In this document: positions 6,348-61,644 of the stretch, in pieces
How the letters are laid out: the number at the start of each line of letters is the position of its first letter
Position numbering within the stretch: the stretch's first letter is position 1
DNA from: the human T2T-CHM13v2.0 reference genome, Homo sapiens
Reading direction: 5' to 3' (one strand)
Length of the DNA stretch: 64,000 nucleotides
NCBI RefSeq assembly: GCF_009914755.1
Contig: NC_060934.1
Translations under genes and position numbers: made by a program
The notes under the pieces: generated by a model
Databases searched by the model: none
What the model was told of the DNA's origin: nothing
Seen by the model: the letters and a program-made list of their open reading frames with translations, nothing else

Positions 6348-7998
6348 CTATTTCCACCATATCAATGACATCCACTAGATTTTTGGGTATAAATTTGGAA
6401 AGAAATATGATGAATTACCTGCTCAGTGGGGTGAAGTGTCTTTCTCCTTGCTTCCTCCTGCAGGCCCTTCTTTTAATTTTATTGTCCTATCTTTGAACTT
6501 CTCTAGAGATGTTATTCCTATCATTATAAAAACATCTCTGTGAGAGGCCTAGGATGGCCCCAGGAAGCCGATTTCTTAGGATTTTCTCTTCTGTCTCTGT
6601 GAATGGATCTCTGTATCCCCACTTTCTGTTGGGCTTCAGAAATCCTTTCATTTTATGAGGAATCACTGTGTTTTTCTGGGAAAGAGGAATGGGTCTCTGT
6701 ACTGAAGAATCTCACAAAAGAGAATCAGATGTTTCCTTCGCCAAGCCCCCAGATGAAAACGTTCATAAAGTGAGAATATGCCAACGTGCTGGGCAGGATC
6801 GCCTGCCTGCACAGGTCTGTACTGTAATTACATTTAAGCTCCTTTCAAAAAGCGAAATGCTCCCATTCAAAGGATCTTTTTACTGGTTACCAAAAGAACA
6901 TGTTATGAAATTCTAAGCAAAGTCCATTTCAATATAATACATGGGATATGGTTAATAGAATAGGAGGAAAAAGGACTGTGGGAAGAGCTTCAATCTACTA
7001 AGCCCCCAGATTGTAGAAGATCAGATTTCATGAAGAAAACCTAAAAATAAGATAAGAAGCATTCGGCTTTGTTTCATTCTGACTGCTTAGTGCCTACTCT
7101 TGGGCTAAGGGATGCTGACAAGCTAGTATCATCAAGAATTGTCTAGGAACTGTTATTCCTACCCTAGGATTATCACAGCTTGGAATGCCTCGCCTTTCAT
7201 TTTTCTCAGCTTACAACCAAGGCATGTCTAAAATGCAAAGTATCTATTTGAAATGACAAAAAAAGAAATGCAGTGAGAAAACAGATCCTGACAGTTGTGT
7301 TTTATAAAAGTCCATTCTGAGAATACAAGAAAGAAGTATACAAGTTTAAAAAAAATAAGGAAAAGAAAGCAGTTTTAAAGTAAGTCATTAGACAGCCCTA
7401 AGGCAAAAAAAAAATATTTCAAGGAGAGAAAATGATCACAATTTACTAATCAATGATGTTGAATGCAGTGCCAACATGCTTTAACAAATGCGATATTTCT
7501 TCCTAGTAGTACCATTTCATTTCTTTTAAAGTTGAATTAATAGTTTTACTAAACACTATGAAAACGATCAATAATTGCATTTCCTGAGGCATTTAGCCCA
7601 AGAAGTGCTTTTAAAAGGTATATCTTTTTATTTAGATATTTGTTAGATCTAAGCAAAATCAAATCAGGTAACATTATTCAGAAAGACATGAAAGGGTATC
7701 ATCATCCTGGTCACTTGGTGCACACCCAGGTGGAGTCAGGAACATGTAGGACTGATGATCAGGTAGGTTGTTACTTGGAAAACTGGTCCTAGCTTCTAAT
7801 TATTTGTCATTAGTCTTTGCTCAGCATAAACCTAAAAACGGGAGATTTATCTCTCTCTTTTCCAATGTCCTAGTCTTGAATTTTCAAGGGACATGGTGGC
7901 CTTTGTGATATCACAGCAAACTGAGGGCCCACAGGGATGATCCAGGAGAAGCCTCAGGCCCAGTGCTTCAGTGTATTGGAATGCTCGCTGCTTTAATT

Positions 7999-8162
7999 CA
8001 TGCATGCGTCCAGTGCTCACCACGTTCAGGGCCATCGGGGAAAGCACGTCAACATGCTTGGGCAGTGCAGGAAAAGAATCTGGTTAACCTGGAGGCGACA
8101 ACCGAAAGGGGGAGGTTGCATCATGCAAATGAAAACCACAGCTTGGCCTTAGCTGCCATGCA
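7999..8162 (-). promoter_or_regulatory. RBFOX (UGCAUG) splicing-element cluster
   Basis: CATGCA on + (UGCAUG in pre-mRNA) at 7999-8004, 8122-8127 and 8157-8162; extra GCAUG at 8003-8007 and 8053-8057. Confidence 0.6.
8021..8088 (-). other. Candidate 68-nt alternative (poison) cassette exon in KCNMA1 intron 3
   Basis: Minus strand: cctccccctttcggttgtcgcctccag|GTTAACCAG...CCTGAACGTG|gtgagc. Lies in a non-repetitive CpG-rich island with RBFOX motifs on both sides. TGA at 8049-8051 is in the exon-3 frame. Confidence 0.65.
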
Positions 8163-8940
8163 GAAAGGACCTACATCAAAGAGTCTGCAGTGCGGCTCCT
8201 GGGTAAGAGTCGATATGAGAGAGGTGAGTTACTTCAGCAATGAGAGACACAGGCAGAAAAATGTTCAAACCACTCTAAACAGAACACTGTACAGAGCGCT
8301 GGCATTACACGCGAGAAGAGGCAGCTTTGGGGACGAGGAGGGGCGAGACAGAGGGAAGGTGAGGACAGAACTGGCCGTTACTCAATGAAATGGCTTCCCT
8401 GGCCATCCTTTCATATGCATGTATTTTTATAATGTATTTCACTTCAACAAATAACCTCATGAGAGTTTTTAACATCAACCATAATTGTTAAGATGTTGTG
8501 AAAATTCAGGAGAAACAAGGCATCAGTTACATAAAGATACACACCATGGTTTCCTGTAGTTACAGTTCATTATAGAAGCAGAGCTGAAGCGGGTCAGATA
8601 AATAAGAGACAGTTAAGTGCCAACATCCTTAACACTTTGGTTACAGAGCTCATGATGACTCTCAAGGCGTAATGTAGTGTTGAAGGAACCCAACAGTCGT
8701 GAAAGCTCGGGTGGTGCAAGGGTAGGGACTCTATGCATCTATACCCCTGAAAGCCATTTATAACCCTGAAGTTAACCACGCTCTCAAGTGAAGCCATCTT
8801 TTCTTCATCTCAGCATGAATGACAGGTGAACAGTGAGCTCACCTCATACATATTGACCATTTAGCAGAACCCTAGTTACGAGCAAGATTCTCAAAGGTAT
8901 TTCTTATCAAAATCAATTCATCAGCAAAAAGCATATATAT

Positions 8941-10675: not shown

Positions 10676-11960
10676 TAGCAAGTTAATTCTGGGGACAATA
10701 TAGAGTAGGAATTGGAAGCAGAAGGTTGTGAAGACAGAGGTCAATTAGTCAAATTAAATCCCCACGGAAAAAAGTAACCTATGCACATACTAAGATGAGC
10801 ATCATTGTTGCCATATAATTACAGTATCTTAATATCCTGGGAAATACCCCTTCTTCAGGGCCTGCTGCTGTCAGAGTTCTTTAGGAAGAGGGGATTAGGT
10901 CCACAGTATCACTGAAGCAATTTCCTAAACCACATGGTTCTCTCTCCTACCACGGCCCCCATGTCTATTGCAGGAATCTGTGTCATGAAGAAATGACAGC
11001 ACATGTCTCTTAATCTTCTGGAAAAAAAAAAACCCACCCTAGTAAGAAGCTGTTCTTTCTGCTATTTGGAGAGCAGTCTCTAAATTATAGTTAGAATCGA
11101 CATAAAATGAACATATTTCAGTACCTCAAATAGGGGTACCTGGACATAGTAGACACATGCCAACAATTATAGACAAATTACAGATAACAGATTATAGACA
11201 AATTGTATACATGTGTTCACACCCAGGCACATAGAAAAATTACAGTGAACACTTCTGCTGCATCCACTATTAATTACCTAAAGAACTTGGTTAGTCATAC
11301 CGTCAAGCCATCAATTTAACTGCCTTTTAAGTGTCCATCCAACCCTGTGCACAGTTAGGATTTCATGAGCATGTTGGACTGGTTTTCTCTCACAGAATCC
11401 TGACCTTTAGATTTAGATGTCCTTAGTTTCCAGAGGGCTGCCTGAAAGTATGAATTCTGGGGTGTGCAGGGGGTAGGGGGTGAGGCTTTCTTTTGGCAGG
11501 AGTTGACAAGAGGAAAGATGCCATTTTCAGGTAATGTGCTTTCTCTTTAAAAAGTGACCAAGTGTGTTTGATACTCACTTAGCTCAATTTTAACCGTGGT
11601 GGGAGCTCTGTACCCTATGTTGGTAAATCAGAAACAGGAAAGTTCTGTCTGTGTGCTGCTGTGACCATGCGGTCATATTTGTTTGGTGGATTTCCATTTG
11701 TTCCAAGTCCATTCTAGTTTGGAGTTTCCATGAAGCCAGGCCAAGTGTACAAATGCTAACACAGGGAAAAAGAACCCTCTATACATGGACTTACGGAGAA
11801 GACAATACACACTGAACTTGGAAAAGGAGCACAGGCTGAGATTCCCTAAAGTGGCAGCCACCTTGCTGCACAGCAGACACTCAGGGAGATGCTCCAGGCA
11901 GCAATTGCTCAGCAGGAAGGCATGCTGGGGAAGGACCTCATTTCAAAGGAGAGTAGAACA

Positions 11961-12004
11961 GGCCTAAGTGCTGGGATTACAGGCGTGAGGCACCGCACCC
12001 AGCC
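11961..12004 (-). mobile_element. Alu 5'-end stub (~40 nt)
   Basis: aagtgctgggattacaggcgtgaggcaccgcacccagcc is the reverse complement of the Alu 5' end; the rest of the element is absent. Confidence 0.85.
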
Positions 12005-12254
12005 TGAAATTAGTATTATTTTAAAGTTCACGCATGTGACCTTATAAAAATGTTGGTGCTTATTTTTAAGTTATTTCTTTTTCTTTTTAAAATTTGGTTT
12101 CTCACAAGAGAATTTCATTGTGCTGATGGAAGAGTTCTGTATACTGACTGGAGAGGTAATAAAACAAATTTATGTGGGATAAAATGTCTTGGATCTACAC
12201 AGCAAAAAAAAAAAAGTGCTTGTAAAAACTGGCAAAACATCTGTACTTGAGTTT

Positions 12255-23578: not shown

Positions 23579-23989
23579 TCTGCAACGAGCAAAAACGGCT
23601 CTAACCCTGGCTGAATGGAGCACAGCTAAAGTTGGAGACCTGGAAAGTAGCTTTCAGCACCTATACTTGGACTTGCTTATCATCCTTATCCCCCTAATGT
23701 ATCCTTTGACTTTTATACTCCACAGGAATCAAAGGCAGTAGGCGAGGTCTAAGGAAGGTCCTCATGAGGGCAGGAGCACTCACATCTCCAAGAACCAAAT
23801 CACCAATACAATCAGCCCTTAGACAGAAAGGAGCAGCAAGAGATGGACTCACATTTCTGAAACAGTCACTCCTGCATGTCAGTTTTAAGTTTGAAACTGT
23901 AATCAGGAGACAAAAAGTTAGGGTTGGAGAATGTCTGGTGATCACACACACAATTACAAGTGGGCCTAGTGATTATGGCCTGGGACATA

Positions 23990-25910
23990 GCTCCCAGCTC
24001 TCAGTCTGCCCTCTCCACCCCAACTCCAGTCATCTTAATCACCAGGACATAGACCAACCACCAGAAGTGCTGGCCTCCCAGGTCCTTGCTCTGCTGATTG
24101 TCGGTGACCCTTTCCTTTCCTCCACGCCACCCACCCACTCCCATGATCTTGCTCTGGACCCGAAGAAAGCAGCAACTATAGTGTTTCTGATATCTCGGCC
24201 TCAAACACCCCATTCATCAACAGCAACCTCTCATCCTTGTGCTCGCCTGTTCACGTGCTCCCCACTGGGACCCTTCCCCAACCTCAGAGAAATCTCCAAA
24301 TTCTGGACACCTCCCCCGACATCCCACCCCTGGCCAGTCATCTGCTCCCTGCCTTGCCTTGCAACGCTCCTTGTCCAGCCTAATTCCCATAGTCCACCAT
24401 TGTCATCACCCCTGGGCAGCACCCTCCTTCCATAACAGAAGCCCTCAGCCCTACTTCACACCAGCTCTGGAAAGCTGAAAGTTCCTGAATAAAACCACAC
24501 AAGGGAAATGACTGGTTTCGCTTTAAATTCATGATCTCAAACTGCAAATTGACACTCCATACTGACTGGCAAACTGCTATTTTTCTTGAATTGGTTTGCT
24601 TTCCAATTTTCCAAGGCCACTATTTCACAGTTTTCCTTCTCTCCTCCAACCTCCCATGTTCTTTTCTGCACCATCAGGCTCAGTGGATGGCCTCGCCTCA
24701 TCATGTCATTAAAAGTCACATAAAAGAATCAGGCCAGTTACACTTTTTTTCCTACCAGCAGCTCTCCAACACTGCACTTACAGGCGCCCAGCACATCCTC
24801 TGCCTCTTCATTCATAACACACCATGCCCTCCACAGACACTCTTTCAGCCCTGTACTGTCTAACTGTACTGTGTTGCTATAGCAAGCTCTCCCTTGCTGC
24901 TGGAGCTCTGCTGCCAAAATATAAGCTTGCTCAACTGTCCTCCATAGCCAACCACATTTCCAGAGACTACTGCAGGCTCCATCCTTTAGCCCACTTTGAT
25001 CAGGCCCTCCCTCCACTCACTAGAGCTTCAATGTCAAAGAAACCAGCAACATCCCTGTCACAAACTCCACAGATGACCCTAGACCCTTACCTTCCCTCTG
25101 TCTCAACAGTGCTTGGCAATTGGCCACTCCCTCTGCCTGAAACCCTCTCCTCCCTAGGCTTCTGCCATCTCCTTGCCCTGTGTGTGCCCTTCCTCAGTTT
25201 CCCATCCAGCCTCCTCCTGCTTTACTCACCCTCTAAATGTTGGGCATCCTCTTGCCTTCACCTGGGGCACCTTCTCTCCTCTCCCTACACTCTTTCCCCA
25301 GATGGTACCATCAACTCACAGGCATTCAAAGTCATCTTTGTAATTTCCAAATGTAATATGATTCCTCTCTTCTGAGTTCTGGACTCAATTATCTACCCTG
25401 CTGTTTGACATCTTCTCTTTCAGGTGTCACAGACTTCTTAAACTGAACATATCCAAGATGGAAATCCTGATTTCTCCCTAGTGCAGCCCTTAGCCCCCAG
25501 TGCAGCCCCTCCCTTCCCAGTAAATGCTACCACCAGCGACTTGTCATTGAAGCCAAACACTAGAAGGCTAGAAGGACCCTGATTCCTCCTTCCATTCACT
25601 CCACATCCAATTCATCATGGAGTCCTGTCCAAAATGTCTTTCTCCTCTTTAATTTCCCTACTTCACCACCCCACTAGATCAGGCCAGTGCCCTCTTCTGT
25701 CGGGATGGTCTTTTCTTTATCTTCTGAACATGATTACAGATTGCACCTGTTTTGTTTTGTTTTGTTTTGTCTGTCTTTTATTTTTGCTTTTTTTTTTTTT
25801 GCCTGTCTCCTCCTCTAGACTGTGTTCCCTGATTACATTTATTGTTTTACTTATTTACAGTTTCCAGCATAGATCAGGTAATTAACTTTCATTAGATAAA
25901 TAAATAAATG
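23990..25910 (+). mobile_element. L2 LINE, long degenerate fragment
   Basis: C/T-rich L2 ORF-region motifs (ctggcctcccagg..., cacccactcccatg...) ending in an L2 3' end with taaataaatg. Confidence 0.75.
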
Positions 25911-27799: not shown

Positions 27800-28664
27800 T
27801 CACATGGCCAACTTCTCCCAACATCAACTGGTATGTATTAAAGGAATAGGAATTACAGTACATTTCTGGAGAATATTCTTGGCCACCCTGGAATTTCCTG
27901 CATTCAATATGTTGGTTTGCCATGAAGTCTCCAGGAGCTGCCGAATGAAAACATGGAGATACTTACAGATGACACAGACAGAACAAAGTGGAAAATGAGA
28001 AACAAAAGGAGAAAAAAAGTGGTATGAAGTGCAGTTGCACCTCAATTTATGCTGCAGATGCTTTCTTGAAAATTATGTGTAGATCAAATTGATTTATGAA
28101 CTAAACCCTATCATAAATTCAACAAAAGCATTGTGATGGAAACTTTTGTAATCAGAAAAATTTATTTGTGCTGAGAATAGTTGATTCTCAGCCTCTCTTT
28201 TGAATTTACTTGTTATTCTTCTCAAGGGGAGCCTACCTGCACATAAAAGTTCGATAACCACCAGGGATTCTTGATGTGCAGGAATGTCATGAGACCAAAA
28301 TGCTTTACAAAGGCTTAAAAATATAAACTATCTATGCCATTTATAATAGCCATTTCCATAATACTTTAAATATATATCTCAACATAATGGGAGGGTTGAG
28401 AAGATCCTTCTCAGGGATGGAATTCTAGGACCACTATTGAAGGAGATTATTTGCGTGGGTGGGGAAGTTCAGAGGAGATAAGTATCTCCCCTGGGTAACC
28501 AAAAGCCCTGAACCCTTCTCTCTTGACAGTTGAGAGGGAGGGAGAAGTTGAAGGAGTCCAGCACTCCATTTCCAAATGACTCCCATGGCCTCCTTGCAAA
28601 TTACAACGTCACTAGCTCCCTGGTCTTCCATAGCCAAAGGTTACAAAATGGCCACCCATACAGG

Positions 28665-29053: not shown

Positions 29054-29645
<592 letters not shown>

Positions 29646-36254: not shown

Positions 36255-36407
36255 CTGGACCCTGGGCTCTGAGTAAACAATCCAATGATGCTACCCACAA
36301 AGGCCGCAGATCCAAGCTTAGGAGGCATCTTCCCGTCAATGCCCTGGGGGCCCCTGTTGCCAAGTGACATGTGTCTGTGATTGCAGAAGGCCCTATTCTC
36401 CCAGAAT
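36255..36407 (-). other. Weak candidate in-frame 153-nt cassette exon
   Basis: cccccttcctcccctag| acceptor and CAG|gtgaga donor; open in the phase-2 KCNMA1 frame. No independent support. Confidence 0.25.
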
Positions 36408-38686: not shown

Positions 38687-39844
38687 TAGGGGGTAAGCCA
38701 ACCACTCGGTTTCCTGGTAGCCAATCTATAAAGTCCCCAGGAGATCACTGGAAAAGTAACAAGATGGAAAAATGAGATTTTCAGGGTGAGCACTCACTAT
38801 ACATGATCGAGAAGAGCACTATAAAAAGCCAGGTGTGAGGAGGTAAAGCTCCCATAAGGACAAGATCAGAGATAAACAAAGAGTCTCTGAACTGCTAAAG
38901 AGGCTTGCCAGGGTCCCTGAGCCACCTCTACAACAGTTTTCTTCCTCCTCCGCTTCCCCAACACAAAGGTTAGTTTCTCTGCTAAATAAATATTGAATAC
39001 TTACGTAACAAATATCAATTTGAAGGCACATAAAATTATGAGCCTGCCCAAGTGTCTTCTTGGCCTACCATGCTCTGAGCTAACTGGGGCACTGAGTGTA
39101 AACACTCTCCCGGCTACTGCTTTGCTCTTTCCCTCCCTCATTATTCACCACATTCAGTGAACAGAAATTCCAGCTTGAGCCACCTGTAGTCATGTGGCAT
39201 TGGTCCAAAGCCCTCACTACCATGGGCGCCAACCCTAAGGGGAGGTATCCTCAGCACTCACTACGTGAAAACCTACTTTGCTTGGGACCAAGAAAAGAAT
39301 AATTCAGCATGAATACGACATCACTGGAACTTGTTAGTGTTATTTGAAAGATGTGGCTGAAGTTTTACATAGGGAATGTGTGCTTCCATCACAAGTAACA
39401 CAGTGTATACAAAACTAACAAAGCAGTTTGTGGCCAAGAGGTTTTTGTTTTCTAGGATGAATAAGAAGGCCATGTTCTTGAAGGAACTTGAGGAACAATG
39501 ACTACTTCAAGTCCACCCTGAAATATGGACACGATGGAAAAGCAAACAAAGGTGGGTCATCCACCTGGGAATCTCTAGTTCAATGGTTAGCTCAGTAAAT
39601 CTTCCCAATTTACCATGCAGATCCATCTCCCTTAACCCCATAAACTGGTCTAAAGAATAAACATATTGCAATTTGGGTATTAATTTAATCAGGCATGATT
39701 TTGCAGAGAAGCCCATGGCAAAAAAAAAAAAAAAACTTTCTATAATGAGGTCCAATACCAAAAATAGTAGTAACAATAATTTAAAAGCAGATTGTTTAAA
39801 ATCCATCTCTTCCTCTCTGTTTCTATCCATAATTGAGGAGGAAG

Positions 39845-40060
39845 AGCATTTGTTCAGCCTACTGTCTGCCAGGCATGTGCCAGGAGCTTCACTCATCTCT
39901 TCACCCCAGTATATTATTGCTGTTGTATGGATGGAGAAACCAAGATTTGCAGAGATTATCACCTGCCCAAGGCTACCTTCCTGGGAAGAGGGAGATCTGG
40001 ATTTGAACCCCACCTCGGTCTGAGTCCAAAGCCTGTGCTCTTCCCACATTGTGCTGCTGG
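39845..40060 (-). mobile_element. MIR
   Basis: gatggagaaacc...cctgcccaagg...ggatttgaaccc. Confidence 0.6.
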
Positions 40061-40159
40061 CCATCCCTGAAGCTGCCGCTGTAGGTGGAGCATACTCCCT
40101 GAGACGAACCAAGGGAGTAGTGGCTATATATATATATATATGTACACACACACAAAGCA

Positions 40160-40850
40160 AACAAACAAAAACAAAATAAGTTGGCGAGGATGTGGACAAA
40201 TTGCAACCCCCGCATGTTGTTGGTGGAAATGTAAAATGGTACAGCCATTGTGGAAAACAGTTTAGTGATTCATCAAAAAGCTAAACATTGAATTCCTAAA
40301 TGACCCTGCAATTCCACTCCTATGCATATAAGAATTGAAAACAGGAATTCAAACAGATACTTGTGCACAACTGTTTATTGGAGCATTATTCACAATAGCC
40401 AAAAGGTAGAAACAATCTACATGTTCATTGACAAATGAATGGATAAACAAAATGTGTGGCAGACATAAAATGGAATATTATTCAGCCATCAAAGGGAATT
40501 AAGTACTGATACGTGCTACAACGTGGATGAACCTTGAAAGCATTATGTCAATGAAGGAAGCCAGACACAAAGGTCGCAAATATATGATTCCATTTAGATG
40601 AAACATCTAGAAGAGGTAAATCCATAGAGACAGAAAGCAGATCAGTGGTTGTCAGGGCCTAGGAGGACAGAGGAATGGGGAGTGACTCTGATGAGTATGG
40701 GGTTTCCTTTTGGGTTTACAGAAATGTCTTGACTAAATAGAAGTGATGGTTGCATAACATTGTGAAGGTACGAATCACCACTGTATCGTACACATTAAAA
40801 TGGCTAATAGTTACTTTTATGCTCTGTGAATTTTGCCAGGATTAAGAAAA
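40160..40850 (+). mobile_element. L1MB-like 3' fragment
   Basis: ORF2-end and 3'UTR motifs (ggtggaaatgtaaaatggtacagcc...; tccatagagacagaaagcagat). Confidence 0.85.
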
Positions 40851-57659: not shown

Positions 57660-60600
57660 CCTCTGTCTCTTCCAACTTTCTCTTGAAATTCTGAAAGCTA
57701 CAGGGACTGCTGCATTATGCAATCCATGAATCTCGCTCTCATGCTGACACTGGTGGGTCTTTGTTTTTTTTCCTTATCTGTTAGATAAGAATTGCTGTTC
57801 TTGTGTCAAAGGGAGGAAATAGACAAGGATGGAAGCAGCAATGGTGACATTAGCACCCACAGGGCGTCTGCAGGCACTCTTGACTTGGTTGTACAATTTC
57901 TAAAAAATCTTTGCTTCACAAGGATCAGAATATGTGGGAGGACAGGGTTGGCGTTGGTGTCGGGAGACATCAGAATTAGGAACTAAAGTGACGTGTGACA
58001 TAAATTGGGCAGGAGTCCTTTTAAAAAGAATGCAAAAGAAAGGGAGCTTTTTGTACACAATCCACCTCGTGTGGCTAATTGGAGATCTTTGGGGAGATGG
58101 TGTGTGGAGGGCTCAATGCTTGTCTGTGCTTGTTAAGGCACTAACATGATGTCTGACCAAAGACTCAGTCCAGAGGCATCTTCCTCTGCTTGGGTGTTTC
58201 TAGAGAGTCTACTGCTGGGATGATAAAGCATCATTTTAGTAAGGTTTAACGTAATTATCTTTGGTTTTCAATTCCAGGAGCTCTGAGGACAATCTGTCTT
58301 AGCCAGATAGTAATCACTTGCAGCTACACAAATGAGTCTTCCCTCACAACCACCCTAGGTTCATTAAGATCAGACCCAAAGAAAACGCCCTATGCTGGGA
58401 TCTGTCTTTGCCTAATGGCCAAAAATGAAAGGTGTGCAGCTGTCTTTGGAAGTGACTTATCCATCACCTCTGGATAGTAAAAAGAGCTTTAAAAGGTTAA
58501 AAAGATCATAAACCACCAATGATGACCTTTCTCTGAGCTGTATTGCTAATGGACAGAAGTAAAATAACTACCTAGCCTGCTTGTCCACTTGCACAACTGG
58601 AGCTGGCCTGCCTCGAGACATAGCTGGTCCAGCAGACCTAGGGAGCCTGTTTTATACATTAATCGGCATTCCTTGCACTTTTCAAAGGGCTGGGTGCAGA
58701 GAGCCTGGAATCTCAAACTTGTGCTACAGGATAGTCCTCAGCATTCTGGAGGGGAGGGGCAGCTCTGGCTAAAATTCACTGAGACAAGCCATTTCACGCA
58801 TGTCTGTTGGTTTAGATTCACTTGTGGGAAAGCCTATAGACTGTCCCCTGATTCATTTATTTGAAGGGTGTAAATACTAGCTACAATTCATCTGGAGAAT
58901 TCTGGGTGCTTTTTTTCCAGGGTGATGATTTAGTATAACTTCCACGAGAAGTTTAAAGCTGTCTTTCCAAAATACCCAGATGGCCAGCCAAACCATGAAT
59001 GTGTAAAACTGGTAACAGTTTTGAATGAAAGACATGGATTTTAAGAATGTACATTCTACTTTCTCACTTTCTTTCCATTTGCATCTTATATGTGGATAGA
59101 ACTTCATTTTTTTTTCTCATTCACTAAGCTCGATTATAATTTTTTAATAGGTTTCACTGTGTTTTATTCCTGGAAATCTATGGACTTACCATAGAGATGG
59201 CTTTAGAGATTCTACACTAATTCTCTCCCAAACTAAAACTGAGCTTGCTTGCCGTCTTTCCCAAGGAAGATGGAAAACTCCCTTGTGCTGAATCCACTGA
59301 TTGGGCCTGCCACCGGACAGAATCTTCGGATATGCTCTCAGAACAAAATGAAGTCATGAAAATGAAAAGTTTCTATATAAATAACCAGAAGGTCTTCTTA
59401 TAAACAAAGCCTTGCTATGCCAAATCACACAGTTTAGCAACAGAGAAGAAAGGCTAAAGCTGGGATGAGGCTACGACAGTCCTCAGGCAGAATGGGAATA
59501 GCCTTGTTTCTAACCTTATGGGCATTTTTGCCAGGAAAAGGTGAGGACAGGACTGAAGTTCCATCCTTGGGATAGACTATTTGCAAGTTCATAAAAGAAA
59601 CCAGAATCAGAGAGGACTCCCAGTGCCATCTTCGCCAAGGCCTAGAAGGATCACAATTAAAGCCAAAGGACATTGAGATGGTGTAGGACATTAGGGGAAG
59701 AGGGTGCATTGGGGAATTTCATTCCTTTTCATCTTCTCACACGGAAACAGAGAACACCAGGATCTACAGAACAAAAGACTGCCTCATAGTAGACTGTAAA
59801 AAAAGACACAATCCAAATCCATCTAAAGAGCATTTTATTTCTGAGAAATACAGAGGGACAAAAGGTTAAAAAAATAAAAAAAATAAAAAAACGAAAAGGG
59901 AAGGAAGGTGCTGGCTGAGGCATCTGGACTTCTAACCCATCAACACACTCACCTCCACATTAGGGTTTTCTTTCTCTGGGACATACAAGCTTCAAGCCCA
60001 AACCTCTTTCCTGAGTCTCAGCATGGAAGTTGGCAGGGTCTGCACCCCACGACATGTAAGAACACCCCTGGAGAGAGATTGGAGAAATAAGACCAGGGGC
60101 TTTAGAGGATCTTCAGTTCAATACAAATAGGATCCAGAATCATTAACAGTAAATATTTAAAAGGGGGCTTACCTTCAATGACATGCCAATGGGAGTCTTC
60201 CAAACTTAAACAAGCTCTTCTCTTTCTTGGCTCGGGAGAGCTGATGGAGGGAGCATGTGGAATCTTGTCTCCTGACAGCGTTTAAAGGACTCTCCATCTG
60301 AGATGGGTGAGGGCAGCCCAGCCTCGCATGTGGGGTGGGCTGAAGGACCTCTGATAGGCTTAAACTTGGCTGATTCCCAGAGACAGGTTATTAAAGGAGA
60401 TATTTGCTTTGTTTTCCCTGACTGACATTTTGGCCTCTCCACCCAAATGCACAAAATCCTTGGCCGGTGACCAGATGGCTCTGAGAAATTCTGAGTTTAG
60501 CTGTGCATGAAATTACCACCATCCCAAGCCACAGGAAAGGAGCACTAAGCTCAGAATTCAGGCACACCAGAGTCTGAGCCAACAGGCACACCAAGCAGGT

Positions 60601-61582: not shown

Positions 61583-61644
61583 TTTGATGAATCTATGAAG
61601 TATATTACAAGTGCACCGATGCTGAGAGCAAAGACTAAGACAAC
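61583..61644 (-). CDS. KCNMA1: KCNMA1 (BK/Slo1 Ca2+-activated K+ channel alpha subunit) coding exon 3, 62 nt, S1 helix
   Basis: Minus strand reads ctcctcttcttttacag|GTTGTCTTAGTCTTTGCTCTCAGCATCGGTGCACTTGTAATATACTTCATAGATTCATCAAA|gtgagt. It has a strong acceptor and a consensus donor, and translates VVLVFALSIGALVIYFIDSS-(N), recognised as Slo1 S1. Phase 0 in, phase 2 out. Confidence 0.95.

What the first reader, a model, noticed from the sequence alone, without database searches (positions are those of the whole stretch)
8021..8088. Candidate poison exon in KCNMA1 intron 3
Seen: a clean minus-strand acceptor (pyrimidine tract + CAG|G) and donor (GTG|gtgagc) enclose 68 nt. The exon sits in a non-repetitive island with about 15 CpGs in 7980-8390, far denser than the flanks. 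Spliced to exon 3 (ends AA, phase 2) it reads K-L-T-R-F-F-S-C-T-A-Q-A-C-stop, with TGA at 8049-8051; the other two frames also stop. Known: a stop upstream of many exon junctions triggers NMD, and ion-channel genes such as SCN1A (20N) and SCN8A (18N) use such exons as expression switches. Inference: a regulated AS-NMD switch for BK channel dosage, relevant to KCNMA1 channelopathy and ASO targeting. I cannot tell whether it is already annotated.
Basis: partly seen in the sequence, partly recalled or inferred. Interest (0 to 1): 0.85.

Follow-up and report, generated by a model that had tools for sequence, protein, structure and literature searches.

The report
Unproven exon-like unit in KCNMA1 intron
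A 68-base stretch deep in a BK potassium-channel gene intron is shaped like a decay-triggering "poison" exon and sits in an unusual island rich in RBFOX splicing-factor motifs, but nothing available shows it is ever spliced in.

Summary
On the minus strand, 8021-8088 is a 68-nt AG..GT unit. Joined to the upstream coding exon it reads K-L-T-R-F-F-S-C-T-A-Q-A-C-stop, and it lies in a 15-CpG island.

The splice motifs alone are at chance level. In 264 kb of KCNMA1, 29 sense and 26 antisense AG..GT pairs score at least as well. A premature stop is the default: 5 of 6 comparable units in this intron have one.

The exon is not in the hub's RefSeq table. It is also missing from three published NMD-exon lists that do list other KCNMA1 events, including a 115-nt exon in the same intron at 59953-60067.

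The setting is not random. This is the only non-repeat CpG-dense stretch in 264 kb. It also holds the tightest sense-strand GCAUG (RBFOX-type) cluster, five motifs flanking the unit. That cluster is already listed in a published table of deep-intronic RBFOX clusters.

Best reading: a deep-intronic RBFOX-type element containing a latent exon. A regulated dosage switch is possible but unshown. Conservation and junction reads could not be tested.

The parts
8021..8088 (-). 68-nt exon-shaped unit (candidate cassette exon); length is 2 mod 3, so it shifts the frame
   Evidence: best acceptor and only donor with PWM >= 2 between 8400 and 7700
8089..8120 (-). Acceptor region: pyrimidine-rich tract ending ccag, with no other AG in the last 41 nt
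   Evidence: PWM 7.3, reached by 24 of 4867 AG sites on this strand of the window
8012..8020 (-). Intron side of the donor, GTG|gtgagcact
   Evidence: PWM 4.6, equal to the real donor of exon 61583-61644 (4.5); reached by 44 of 3435 GT sites
8049..8051 (-). In-frame TGA when spliced after exon 61583-61644
8157..8162 (-). UGCAUG motif, 73 nt upstream of the acceptor
8122..8127 (-). UGCAUG motif, 38 nt upstream of the acceptor, in the likely branch-point zone
8053..8057 (-). GCAUG motif inside the unit
7999..8007 (-). GCAUGCAUG, two overlapping motifs starting 14 and 18 nt downstream of the donor
7966..8396 (.). Unique-sequence CpG-dense island (15 CpG per 411 nt, GC 0.51); 16 sub-windows of 200 bp starting at 8178-8193 just meet GC > 0.5 and o/e > 0.6
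61583..61644 (-). Upstream constitutive coding exon (BK S1 segment, residues 116-135), ends in phase 2; would be the splice partner
   Evidence: hub annotation

Best explanation
The 430-bp island is a real functional element of the KCNMA1 intron. It is most likely a deep-intronic binding platform for RBFOX-type splicing factors on the pre-mRNA. The 68-nt unit inside it is a latent (cryptic) exon that is normally spliced in rarely or not at all. If included, it would shift the frame, stop translation after 13 codons and send the mRNA to nonsense-mediated decay. Shown: the sequence anatomy, the rarity of the island and of the motif cluster, and the absence from the annotation and lists consulted. 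Inferred: RBFOX binding, low usage and the NMD outcome.
For: Splice motifs are at chance level. In 264 kb, 29 sense and 26 antisense AG..GT pairs of 30-300 nt reach both of the candidate's PWM scores, and the window alone has 8 on this strand.

A premature stop is the default. Of the 6 such units lying in this intron, 5 carry an in-frame stop after the upstream exon.

There is no exon here in the hub's RefSeq table (61 transcripts). It is also absent from three lists:
- Felker et al.'s supplement, whose only KCNMA1 poison exon is chr10:77108286-77108377.
- Lim et al. 2020, with 3 KCNMA1 events, none here.
- The JCI 2026 AS-NMD tables, whose pipeline also rebuilds unannotated events.

The island is the only one of 3 stretches with at least 15 CpG per 411 nt in 264 kb that is not a dispersed repeat. 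Five sense GCATG lie within 163 nt, the only sense cluster of at least 4 per 170 nt in 264 kb. In simulation, 6 of 200 Markov-simulated 64-kb sequences reached 4 per 160 nt. The cluster appears in the S2 table of PMC12435732 as chr10:77197623-77197786, KCNMA1, distal intron. A passage in PMC5577181 calls Kcnma1 a major RBFOX target.
Against: The layout is what a genuine RBFOX-controlled cassette exon looks like, with motifs at +14 and +18 past the donor and at -38 and -73 before the acceptor. The unit also has the best acceptor and the only usable donor within about 900 nt.

Steady-state lists under-report NMD targets. GENCODE, which a supplement row suggests carries 91 KCNMA1 transcripts, could not be inspected.

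The LASR-type GU-, G- and U-rich motifs that PMC12435732 reports around such clusters are not enriched here: 8 vs 5.2, 0 vs 2.0, 4 vs 4.7.

No CLIP data were seen. I noticed the GCATG cluster after looking at the site, so its significance is post hoc.
Confidence: 0.5

Rival explanations
1. One reading: a genuine cassette poison exon whose inclusion is set by RBFOX proteins. Downstream GCAUG would activate it and the upstream or branch-point GCAUG would repress it, tuning BK channel mRNA dosage through NMD.
For: The unit has intact AG/GT sites, an AG-free pyrimidine tract, an in-frame stop and a frameshift. They are the best local sites. It sits in the tightest sense GCAUG cluster of 264 kb, placed on both sides of the unit, and in a unique CpG-retaining island. 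Of the 29 equally good sense pairs, only this one has more than 2 GCATG within 100 nt. KCNMA1 already has listed NMD exons, so the gene does use this route.
Against: No transcript evidence was found anywhere I could look: the hub's RefSeq table. The main texts of two poison-exon preprints do not mention KCNMA1, and their supplements are closed. No paper found links KCNMA1 with poison, cryptic or NMD exons at this site. The donor is only moderate (PWM 4.6).
Confidence: 0.25
2. The island is a DNA-level regulatory element, such as a weak orphan CpG island, an enhancer or an unannotated internal promoter. On this reading both the exon shape and the GCATG motifs are incidental, for example parts of octamer-like ATTTGCAT / TGATGCAA transcription-factor sites (motif identities recalled, not tested).
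For: CpG retention and a GC step (0.51 against 0.34-0.43 in the flanks) in unique sequence are typical of germline-unmethylated regulatory DNA. Sixteen 200-bp windows just meet the classic CpG-island criteria. RefSeq annotates an enhancer 3.3 kb away at 11648-12176, and an alternative exon at 27862-27938 behaves like an internal first exon (hub table). No RNA structure or Rfam family was found.
Against: The GCATG cluster is strand-biased. The sense strand reaches 4 per 160 nt here, while the plus strand of the window never exceeds 2. The CpG-island criteria are met only marginally. No chromatin, CAGE or methylation data were available.
Confidence: 0.15
3. Nothing functional: a chance pseudoexon in a chance patch of CpG and GCATG.
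For: Pseudoexons of this quality occur about once per 9 kb on either strand. By the looser published definition, GCATG clusters are common: 19,977 in human genes, and at least 8 rows in KCNMA1.
Against: Three independent rarities coincide within 430 bp: a unique CpG-dense island (1 of 1 non-repeat in 264 kb), the only tight sense GCATG cluster in 264 kb, and a complete AG..GT unit.
Confidence: 0.1

Closest known systems
KCNMA1 115-nt NMD-inducing cassette exon, hg38 chr10:77249565-77249679 (Lim et al. 2020, Nat Commun, supplement; window 59953-60067, minus strand)
   Same: It lies in the same intron, is an AG..GT cassette, shifts the frame and brings an in-frame stop after the same upstream exon.
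   Different: It is catalogued as an exon-inclusion NMD event and has stronger sites (PWM 9.8 and 7.5, against 7.3 and 4.6). It has only 1 GCATG and 2 CpG within 150 nt. The candidate is in no list I could search.
SCN1A exon 20N / SCN8A exon 18N poison exons
   Same: These are ion-channel genes with an intronic cassette that brings a premature stop and lowers productive mRNA. A passage on 20N was seen. The RBFOX control of SCN8A 18N/18A is recalled, not checked.
   Different: Those exons have transcript, conservation, patient-variant and ASO evidence. This one has sequence shape only.
Deep-intronic (U)GCAUG clusters that mediate RbFox1 control of NTrk2/TrkB isoforms (Tomassoni-Ardori et al. 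2025, PLoS Genet, PMC12435732)
   Same: There are at least 4 motifs within 500 nt, far from annotated exons, in a long intron of a neuronal gene. This very cluster is a row of their human table.
   Different: It is much tighter (164 nt), is made of unique sequence rather than GU-repeat-like sequence, and the LASR-type motifs are not enriched. It encloses a complete exon-shaped unit. No CLIP or mutagenesis has been done here.

Membership tests
Poison (NMD-inducing) cassette exon | AG- and GT-bounded unit on the sense strand within an intron | tested here: met
Poison (NMD-inducing) cassette exon | Inclusion creates a stop codon upstream of later exon junctions (the 50-55 nt rule is recalled) | tested here: met
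   TGA at 8049-8051 in the verified frame. The transcript has 28 exons per the hub table, so many junctions follow.
Poison (NMD-inducing) cassette exon | Transcript or junction evidence that the exon is spliced in | tested here: inconclusive
   Absent from the hub's RefSeq table and from three lists. Raw junction data and GENCODE could not be reached.
Poison (NMD-inducing) cassette exon | Inclusion isoform rises when NMD is blocked | not testable with these tools
   No RNA-seq access.
Poison (NMD-inducing) cassette exon | Conservation of the exon and its splice sites (for the regulated, conserved class) | not testable with these tools
   No vertebrate genomes are held. The mouse table has 14 Kcnma1 GCATG clusters, but orthology could not be decided.
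Deep-intronic (T)GCATG cluster (PMC12435732) | At least 4 (T)GCATG within 500 nt | tested here: met
   5 motifs in 163 nt; listed as chr10:77197623-77197786 with 4 motifs
Deep-intronic (T)GCATG cluster (PMC12435732) | Distal intron, more than 500 nt from annotated exons | tested here: met
   Labelled distal_intron. The nearest annotated exon in the hub table is at 27862.
Deep-intronic (T)GCATG cluster (PMC12435732) | Embedded in LASR-binding GU-, G- or U-rich sequence | tested here: not met
   GU pentamers 8 vs 5.2 +/- 4.4; G-runs 0 vs 2.0; U-runs 4 vs 4.7, compared with 5000 random 264-nt windows
Deep-intronic (T)GCATG cluster (PMC12435732) | RBFOX CLIP peak on the cluster | not testable with these tools
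   KCNMA1 does not occur in the paper's third supplementary file. No brain CLIP data were available.
Recursive splice site with RS-exon | The acceptor is followed directly by a strong 5' splice-site sequence, rebuilt after the first splicing step | tested here: not met
   The rebuilt site AAA|GTTAAC scores PWM -4.5.
CpG island (GC > 0.5, o/e > 0.6, at least 200 bp; criteria recalled) | Composition thresholds | tested here: inconclusive
   Only 16 overlapping 200-bp windows pass, and barely (GC 0.51-0.53, o/e 0.64-0.67). The whole island has o/e 0.57.

The most novel reading that the evidence does not exclude
An uncatalogued, RBFOX-gated poison exon of KCNMA1. RBFOX bound at the branch-point UGCAUG would keep it silent where BK channels are needed, and the twin GCAUG just past the donor would drive it in under other conditions. 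BK mRNA dosage would then be set by NMD from a conserved 430-bp intronic module, which would give an ASO handle for loss-of-function KCNMA1 channelopathy.
Probability: 0.12. Interest if true: 0.6.

Novelty: new member of a known kind. Interest (0 to 1): 0.35.

Why it matters
KCNMA1 variants cause epilepsy and movement disorders. For loss-of-function alleles, a naturally used poison exon would be a target for oligonucleotides that raise expression, and a place where deep-intronic patient variants could act. This site is not yet such a target, because no usage is shown and the same intron already holds a catalogued NMD exon. The island is nevertheless the one clearly non-random stretch in 264 kb of intron, so variants in it deserve a look whichever mechanism holds.

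Tried and rejected
- **Recursive splicing:** the rebuilt donor is poor, PWM -4.5.
- **Known RNA family or structured RNA:** there is one sub-threshold Rfam match nearby (snoR113, 22 bits against a gathering score of 47, E 0.17, at 7816-7919). The fold z-score is 0.24.
- **Hidden coding sequence:** the plus-strand 159-codon open frame across the island has no Pfam match. It is only the fifth longest of 16 open frames of at least 120 codons in the window.
- **Repeat origin of the island:** the only hit is to itself, both in the whole genome and in 264 kb.
- **Orthologous mouse GCATG cluster:** the mouse table has 14 Kcnma1 clusters, and some lie at roughly proportional positions. At one cluster per about 37 kb and without an alignment, this decides nothing. 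The numeric search was uninformative.
- **Rat SV1 insert exon, via its recalled CVLF motif:** 3 hits in 264 kb, none followed further.
- **Literature:** KCNMA1 with 'poison exon' gave 6 papers (listing only; a passage of one read). With Rbfox and nonsense-mediated it gave 8 (listing; one passage). With 'cryptic exon' it gave 7 (listing; passages of three). With AS-NMD terms, none of the 15 listed papers held KCNMA1. None describes this site.
- **Earlier findings of this scan** were not open.

Full report
**1. The observation**

On the minus strand the sequence reads ...ctttcggttgtcgcctccag|GTTAACCAG...CTGAACGTG|gtgagcactgg. This gives a 68-nt unit at 8021-8088. The annotated upstream exon, 61583-61644, ends in AA. 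Its translation [20 protein letters not shown] is identical to residues 116-135 of solved BK alpha-subunit chains, which fixes the frame.

Joined to that exon, the unit reads K-L-T-R-F-F-S-C-T-A-Q-A-C-stop, with TGA at 8049-8051. The other two frames also stop, and 68 nt shifts the frame in any case.

The region 7980-8390 holds 15 CpG (GC 0.51, observed/expected 0.57). The whole window has o/e 0.17, and the flanking 400-nt bins hold 1-5 CpG each. The stretch is single copy in its genome.

I did not verify that the upstream exon is number 3.

**2. Is it more than chance?**

I ranked all AG and GT sites with a simple position-weight matrix. Its frequencies are recalled textbook-style values, so it serves only for ranking within this DNA.

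- The acceptor scores 7.3, reached by 24 of 4867 AG sites on this strand of the window.
- The donor scores 4.6, reached by 44 of 3435 GT sites. The real donor of the upstream exon scores 4.5.
- Eight AG..GT pairs of 30-300 nt on this strand reach both scores, the candidate included.

I then added 200 kb of neighbouring KCNMA1 sequence. In the resulting 264 kb there are 29 such pairs on the sense strand and 26 on the antisense strand, where they cannot be KCNMA1 exons. The splice motifs by themselves are therefore what chance gives, about one per 9 kb.

The premature stop adds nothing either. Of the six such units in this intron, five have an in-frame stop after the upstream exon.

The ranking has some power, though. 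One of the eight pairs, 59953-60067, is 115 nt long. That length matches the event chr10:77249565-77249679 listed as an exon-inclusion NMD event of KCNMA1 in the supplement of Lim et al. 2020.

**3. What is not chance**

Two features of the setting stand out.

*The CpG island.* In 264 kb only three stretches reach 15 CpG per 411 nt. The other two are dispersed repeats, with 126 and 74 BLAST hits of about 300 bp at 84-89% identity. The island at 7966-8396 hits only itself.

*The GCATG cluster.* The sense strand carries five GCATG motifs within 163 nt:
- two UGCAUG at 73 and 38 nt upstream of the acceptor, the latter in the likely branch-point zone;
- one inside the unit;
- a GCAUGCAUG starting 14 nt past the donor.

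This is the only sense-strand cluster of at least 4 per 170 nt in 264 kb. The single comparable antisense cluster is a TG-repeat derivative. In simulation, 6 of 200 Markov-simulated 64-kb sequences reached 4 per 160 nt anywhere. Among the 29 equally good sense pairs, none of the others has more than 2 GCATG within 100 nt.

I noticed the motif after looking at the site, so this is a post-hoc statistic.

GCAUG is the RBFOX binding element. A passage in PMC5577181 describes Kcnma1 as a major RBFOX target in a HITS-CLIP study.

**4. The cluster is already in print**

Tomassoni-Ardori et al. 2025 (PMC12435732; abstract and sections 8 and 20 read) define clusters as at least four (T)GCATG within 500 nt. 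They count 19,977 in human genes.

Their human table has the row chr10 77197623-77197786, 4 motifs, distal intron, KCNMA1, minus strand. Its 164-nt span equals my 7999-8162. From that match I estimate the candidate at about hg38 chr10:77,197,645-77,197,712. This is inferred, not lifted over.

At least 8 KCNMA1 rows are visible in that table, so by their looser definition clusters are common. This one is the tightest of those seen.

Their further feature, embedding in GU-, G- or U-rich LASR-binding sequence, is not met here: 8 vs 5.2, 0 vs 2.0 and 4 vs 4.7.

The mouse table has 14 Kcnma1 clusters. Whether one is orthologous cannot be decided without an alignment.

**5. Evidence on usage**

- The hub's RefSeq table (61 transcripts) has no exon here.
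- Felker et al.'s poison-exon supplement has a single KCNMA1 row, chr10:77108286-77108377.
- Lim et al. list three KCNMA1 events, none here.
- The JCI 2026 study rebuilds unannotated events and used NMD-blocked neurons. In its tables the KCNMA1 rows shown were all non-NMD events elsewhere.
- A search of those tables for coordinates beginning 77196-77198 and 77250-77252 gave 17 occurrences. The 15 passages shown were decimals or other chromosomes. The other two were not shown: one is in a table whose visible rows are mouse genes, the other in a file where the visible rows carry the same decimal.
- A supplement row in Steward et al. 2019 reads 'KCNMA1 24 91'. I take these to be transcript counts before and after GENCODE re-annotation, but I did not see the header. 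That annotation could not be inspected.
- Four literature searches found no paper on this site.
- Fair et al. 2024 (abstract only) report that unproductive splicing is pervasive. Finding a few junction reads would therefore not by itself show regulation.

**6. Rejected alternatives**

- Recursive splicing: the rebuilt donor AAA|GTTAAC scores -4.5.
- Known RNA family or stable fold.
- Hidden coding sequence.
- Repeat origin.

**7. Reading**

The island is probably functional. The most economical account is a deep-intronic RBFOX-type element on the pre-mRNA that contains a latent exon used rarely or never (confidence about 0.5).

The motif layout and the locally best splice sites fit it. I put the full 'dosage switch' claim at about 0.12.

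A DNA-level element (weak CpG island, enhancer or promoter) gets about 0.15. Pure chance gets about 0.1.

**8. Novelty**

Poison exons in ion-channel genes are a known kind. KCNMA1 already has listed NMD events, one of them in this intron, and the motif cluster is already tabulated. What would be new is the exon itself and its coupling to the cluster. That would make it a new member of a known kind, of modest interest until usage is shown.

Noticed in passing
window 59953-60067 (-): A 115-nt cassette with strong sites (tctctctccag|G ... GAG|gtgagt) that brings a stop 25 codons after the upstream exon. Its length and position match the KCNMA1 exon-inclusion NMD event chr10:77249565-77249679 in Lim et al. 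2020's supplement. It is not in the hub's RefSeq exon list.
   Followed up: partly
window 27862-27938 (-): The annotated alternative exon has weak motifs (acceptor PWM 4.2, donor AAT|gtactg at -3.6). The 77-nt form starts after CA rather than AG, so it looks like a transcript start. The exon contains an ATG whose frame ends in phase 2 and would run into the next coding exon. It is therefore probably an internal first exon giving an N-terminally short BK protein. If spliced after the upstream exon instead, it brings a stop.
   Followed up: partly
window 36255-36407 (-): A 153-nt AG..GT unit with good sites (PWM 7.5 and 7.2) in unique sequence. It stays open for all 51 codons in the frame of the upstream exon, so it would be an in-frame insert after the S1 segment. 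It has no Pfam match, and chance openness is roughly 9%.
   Followed up: partly
L011:6798-6910 (+) (218798-218910 of the 264-kb window+L002-L021 join, counted from the window start): A TG-repeat-like stretch with five GCATG on the plus strand, antisense to KCNMA1. It is the GU-rich kind of cluster described in PMC12435732 but on the wrong strand for this gene.
   Followed up: no
window 39510-40280 (-), 23710-24432 (+), 29070-29645 (+), 24818-25372 (+): Stop-free stretches of 185-257 codons with no Pfam match. The origin was not determined.
   Followed up: partly
window 8115-8130 (-): The sequence ATTTGCATGATGCAA contains an octamer-like ATTTGCAT and a TGATGCAA element in inverted arrangement. 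The motif identities are recalled and not tested. This could point to transcription-factor binding rather than RBFOX binding.
   Followed up: no
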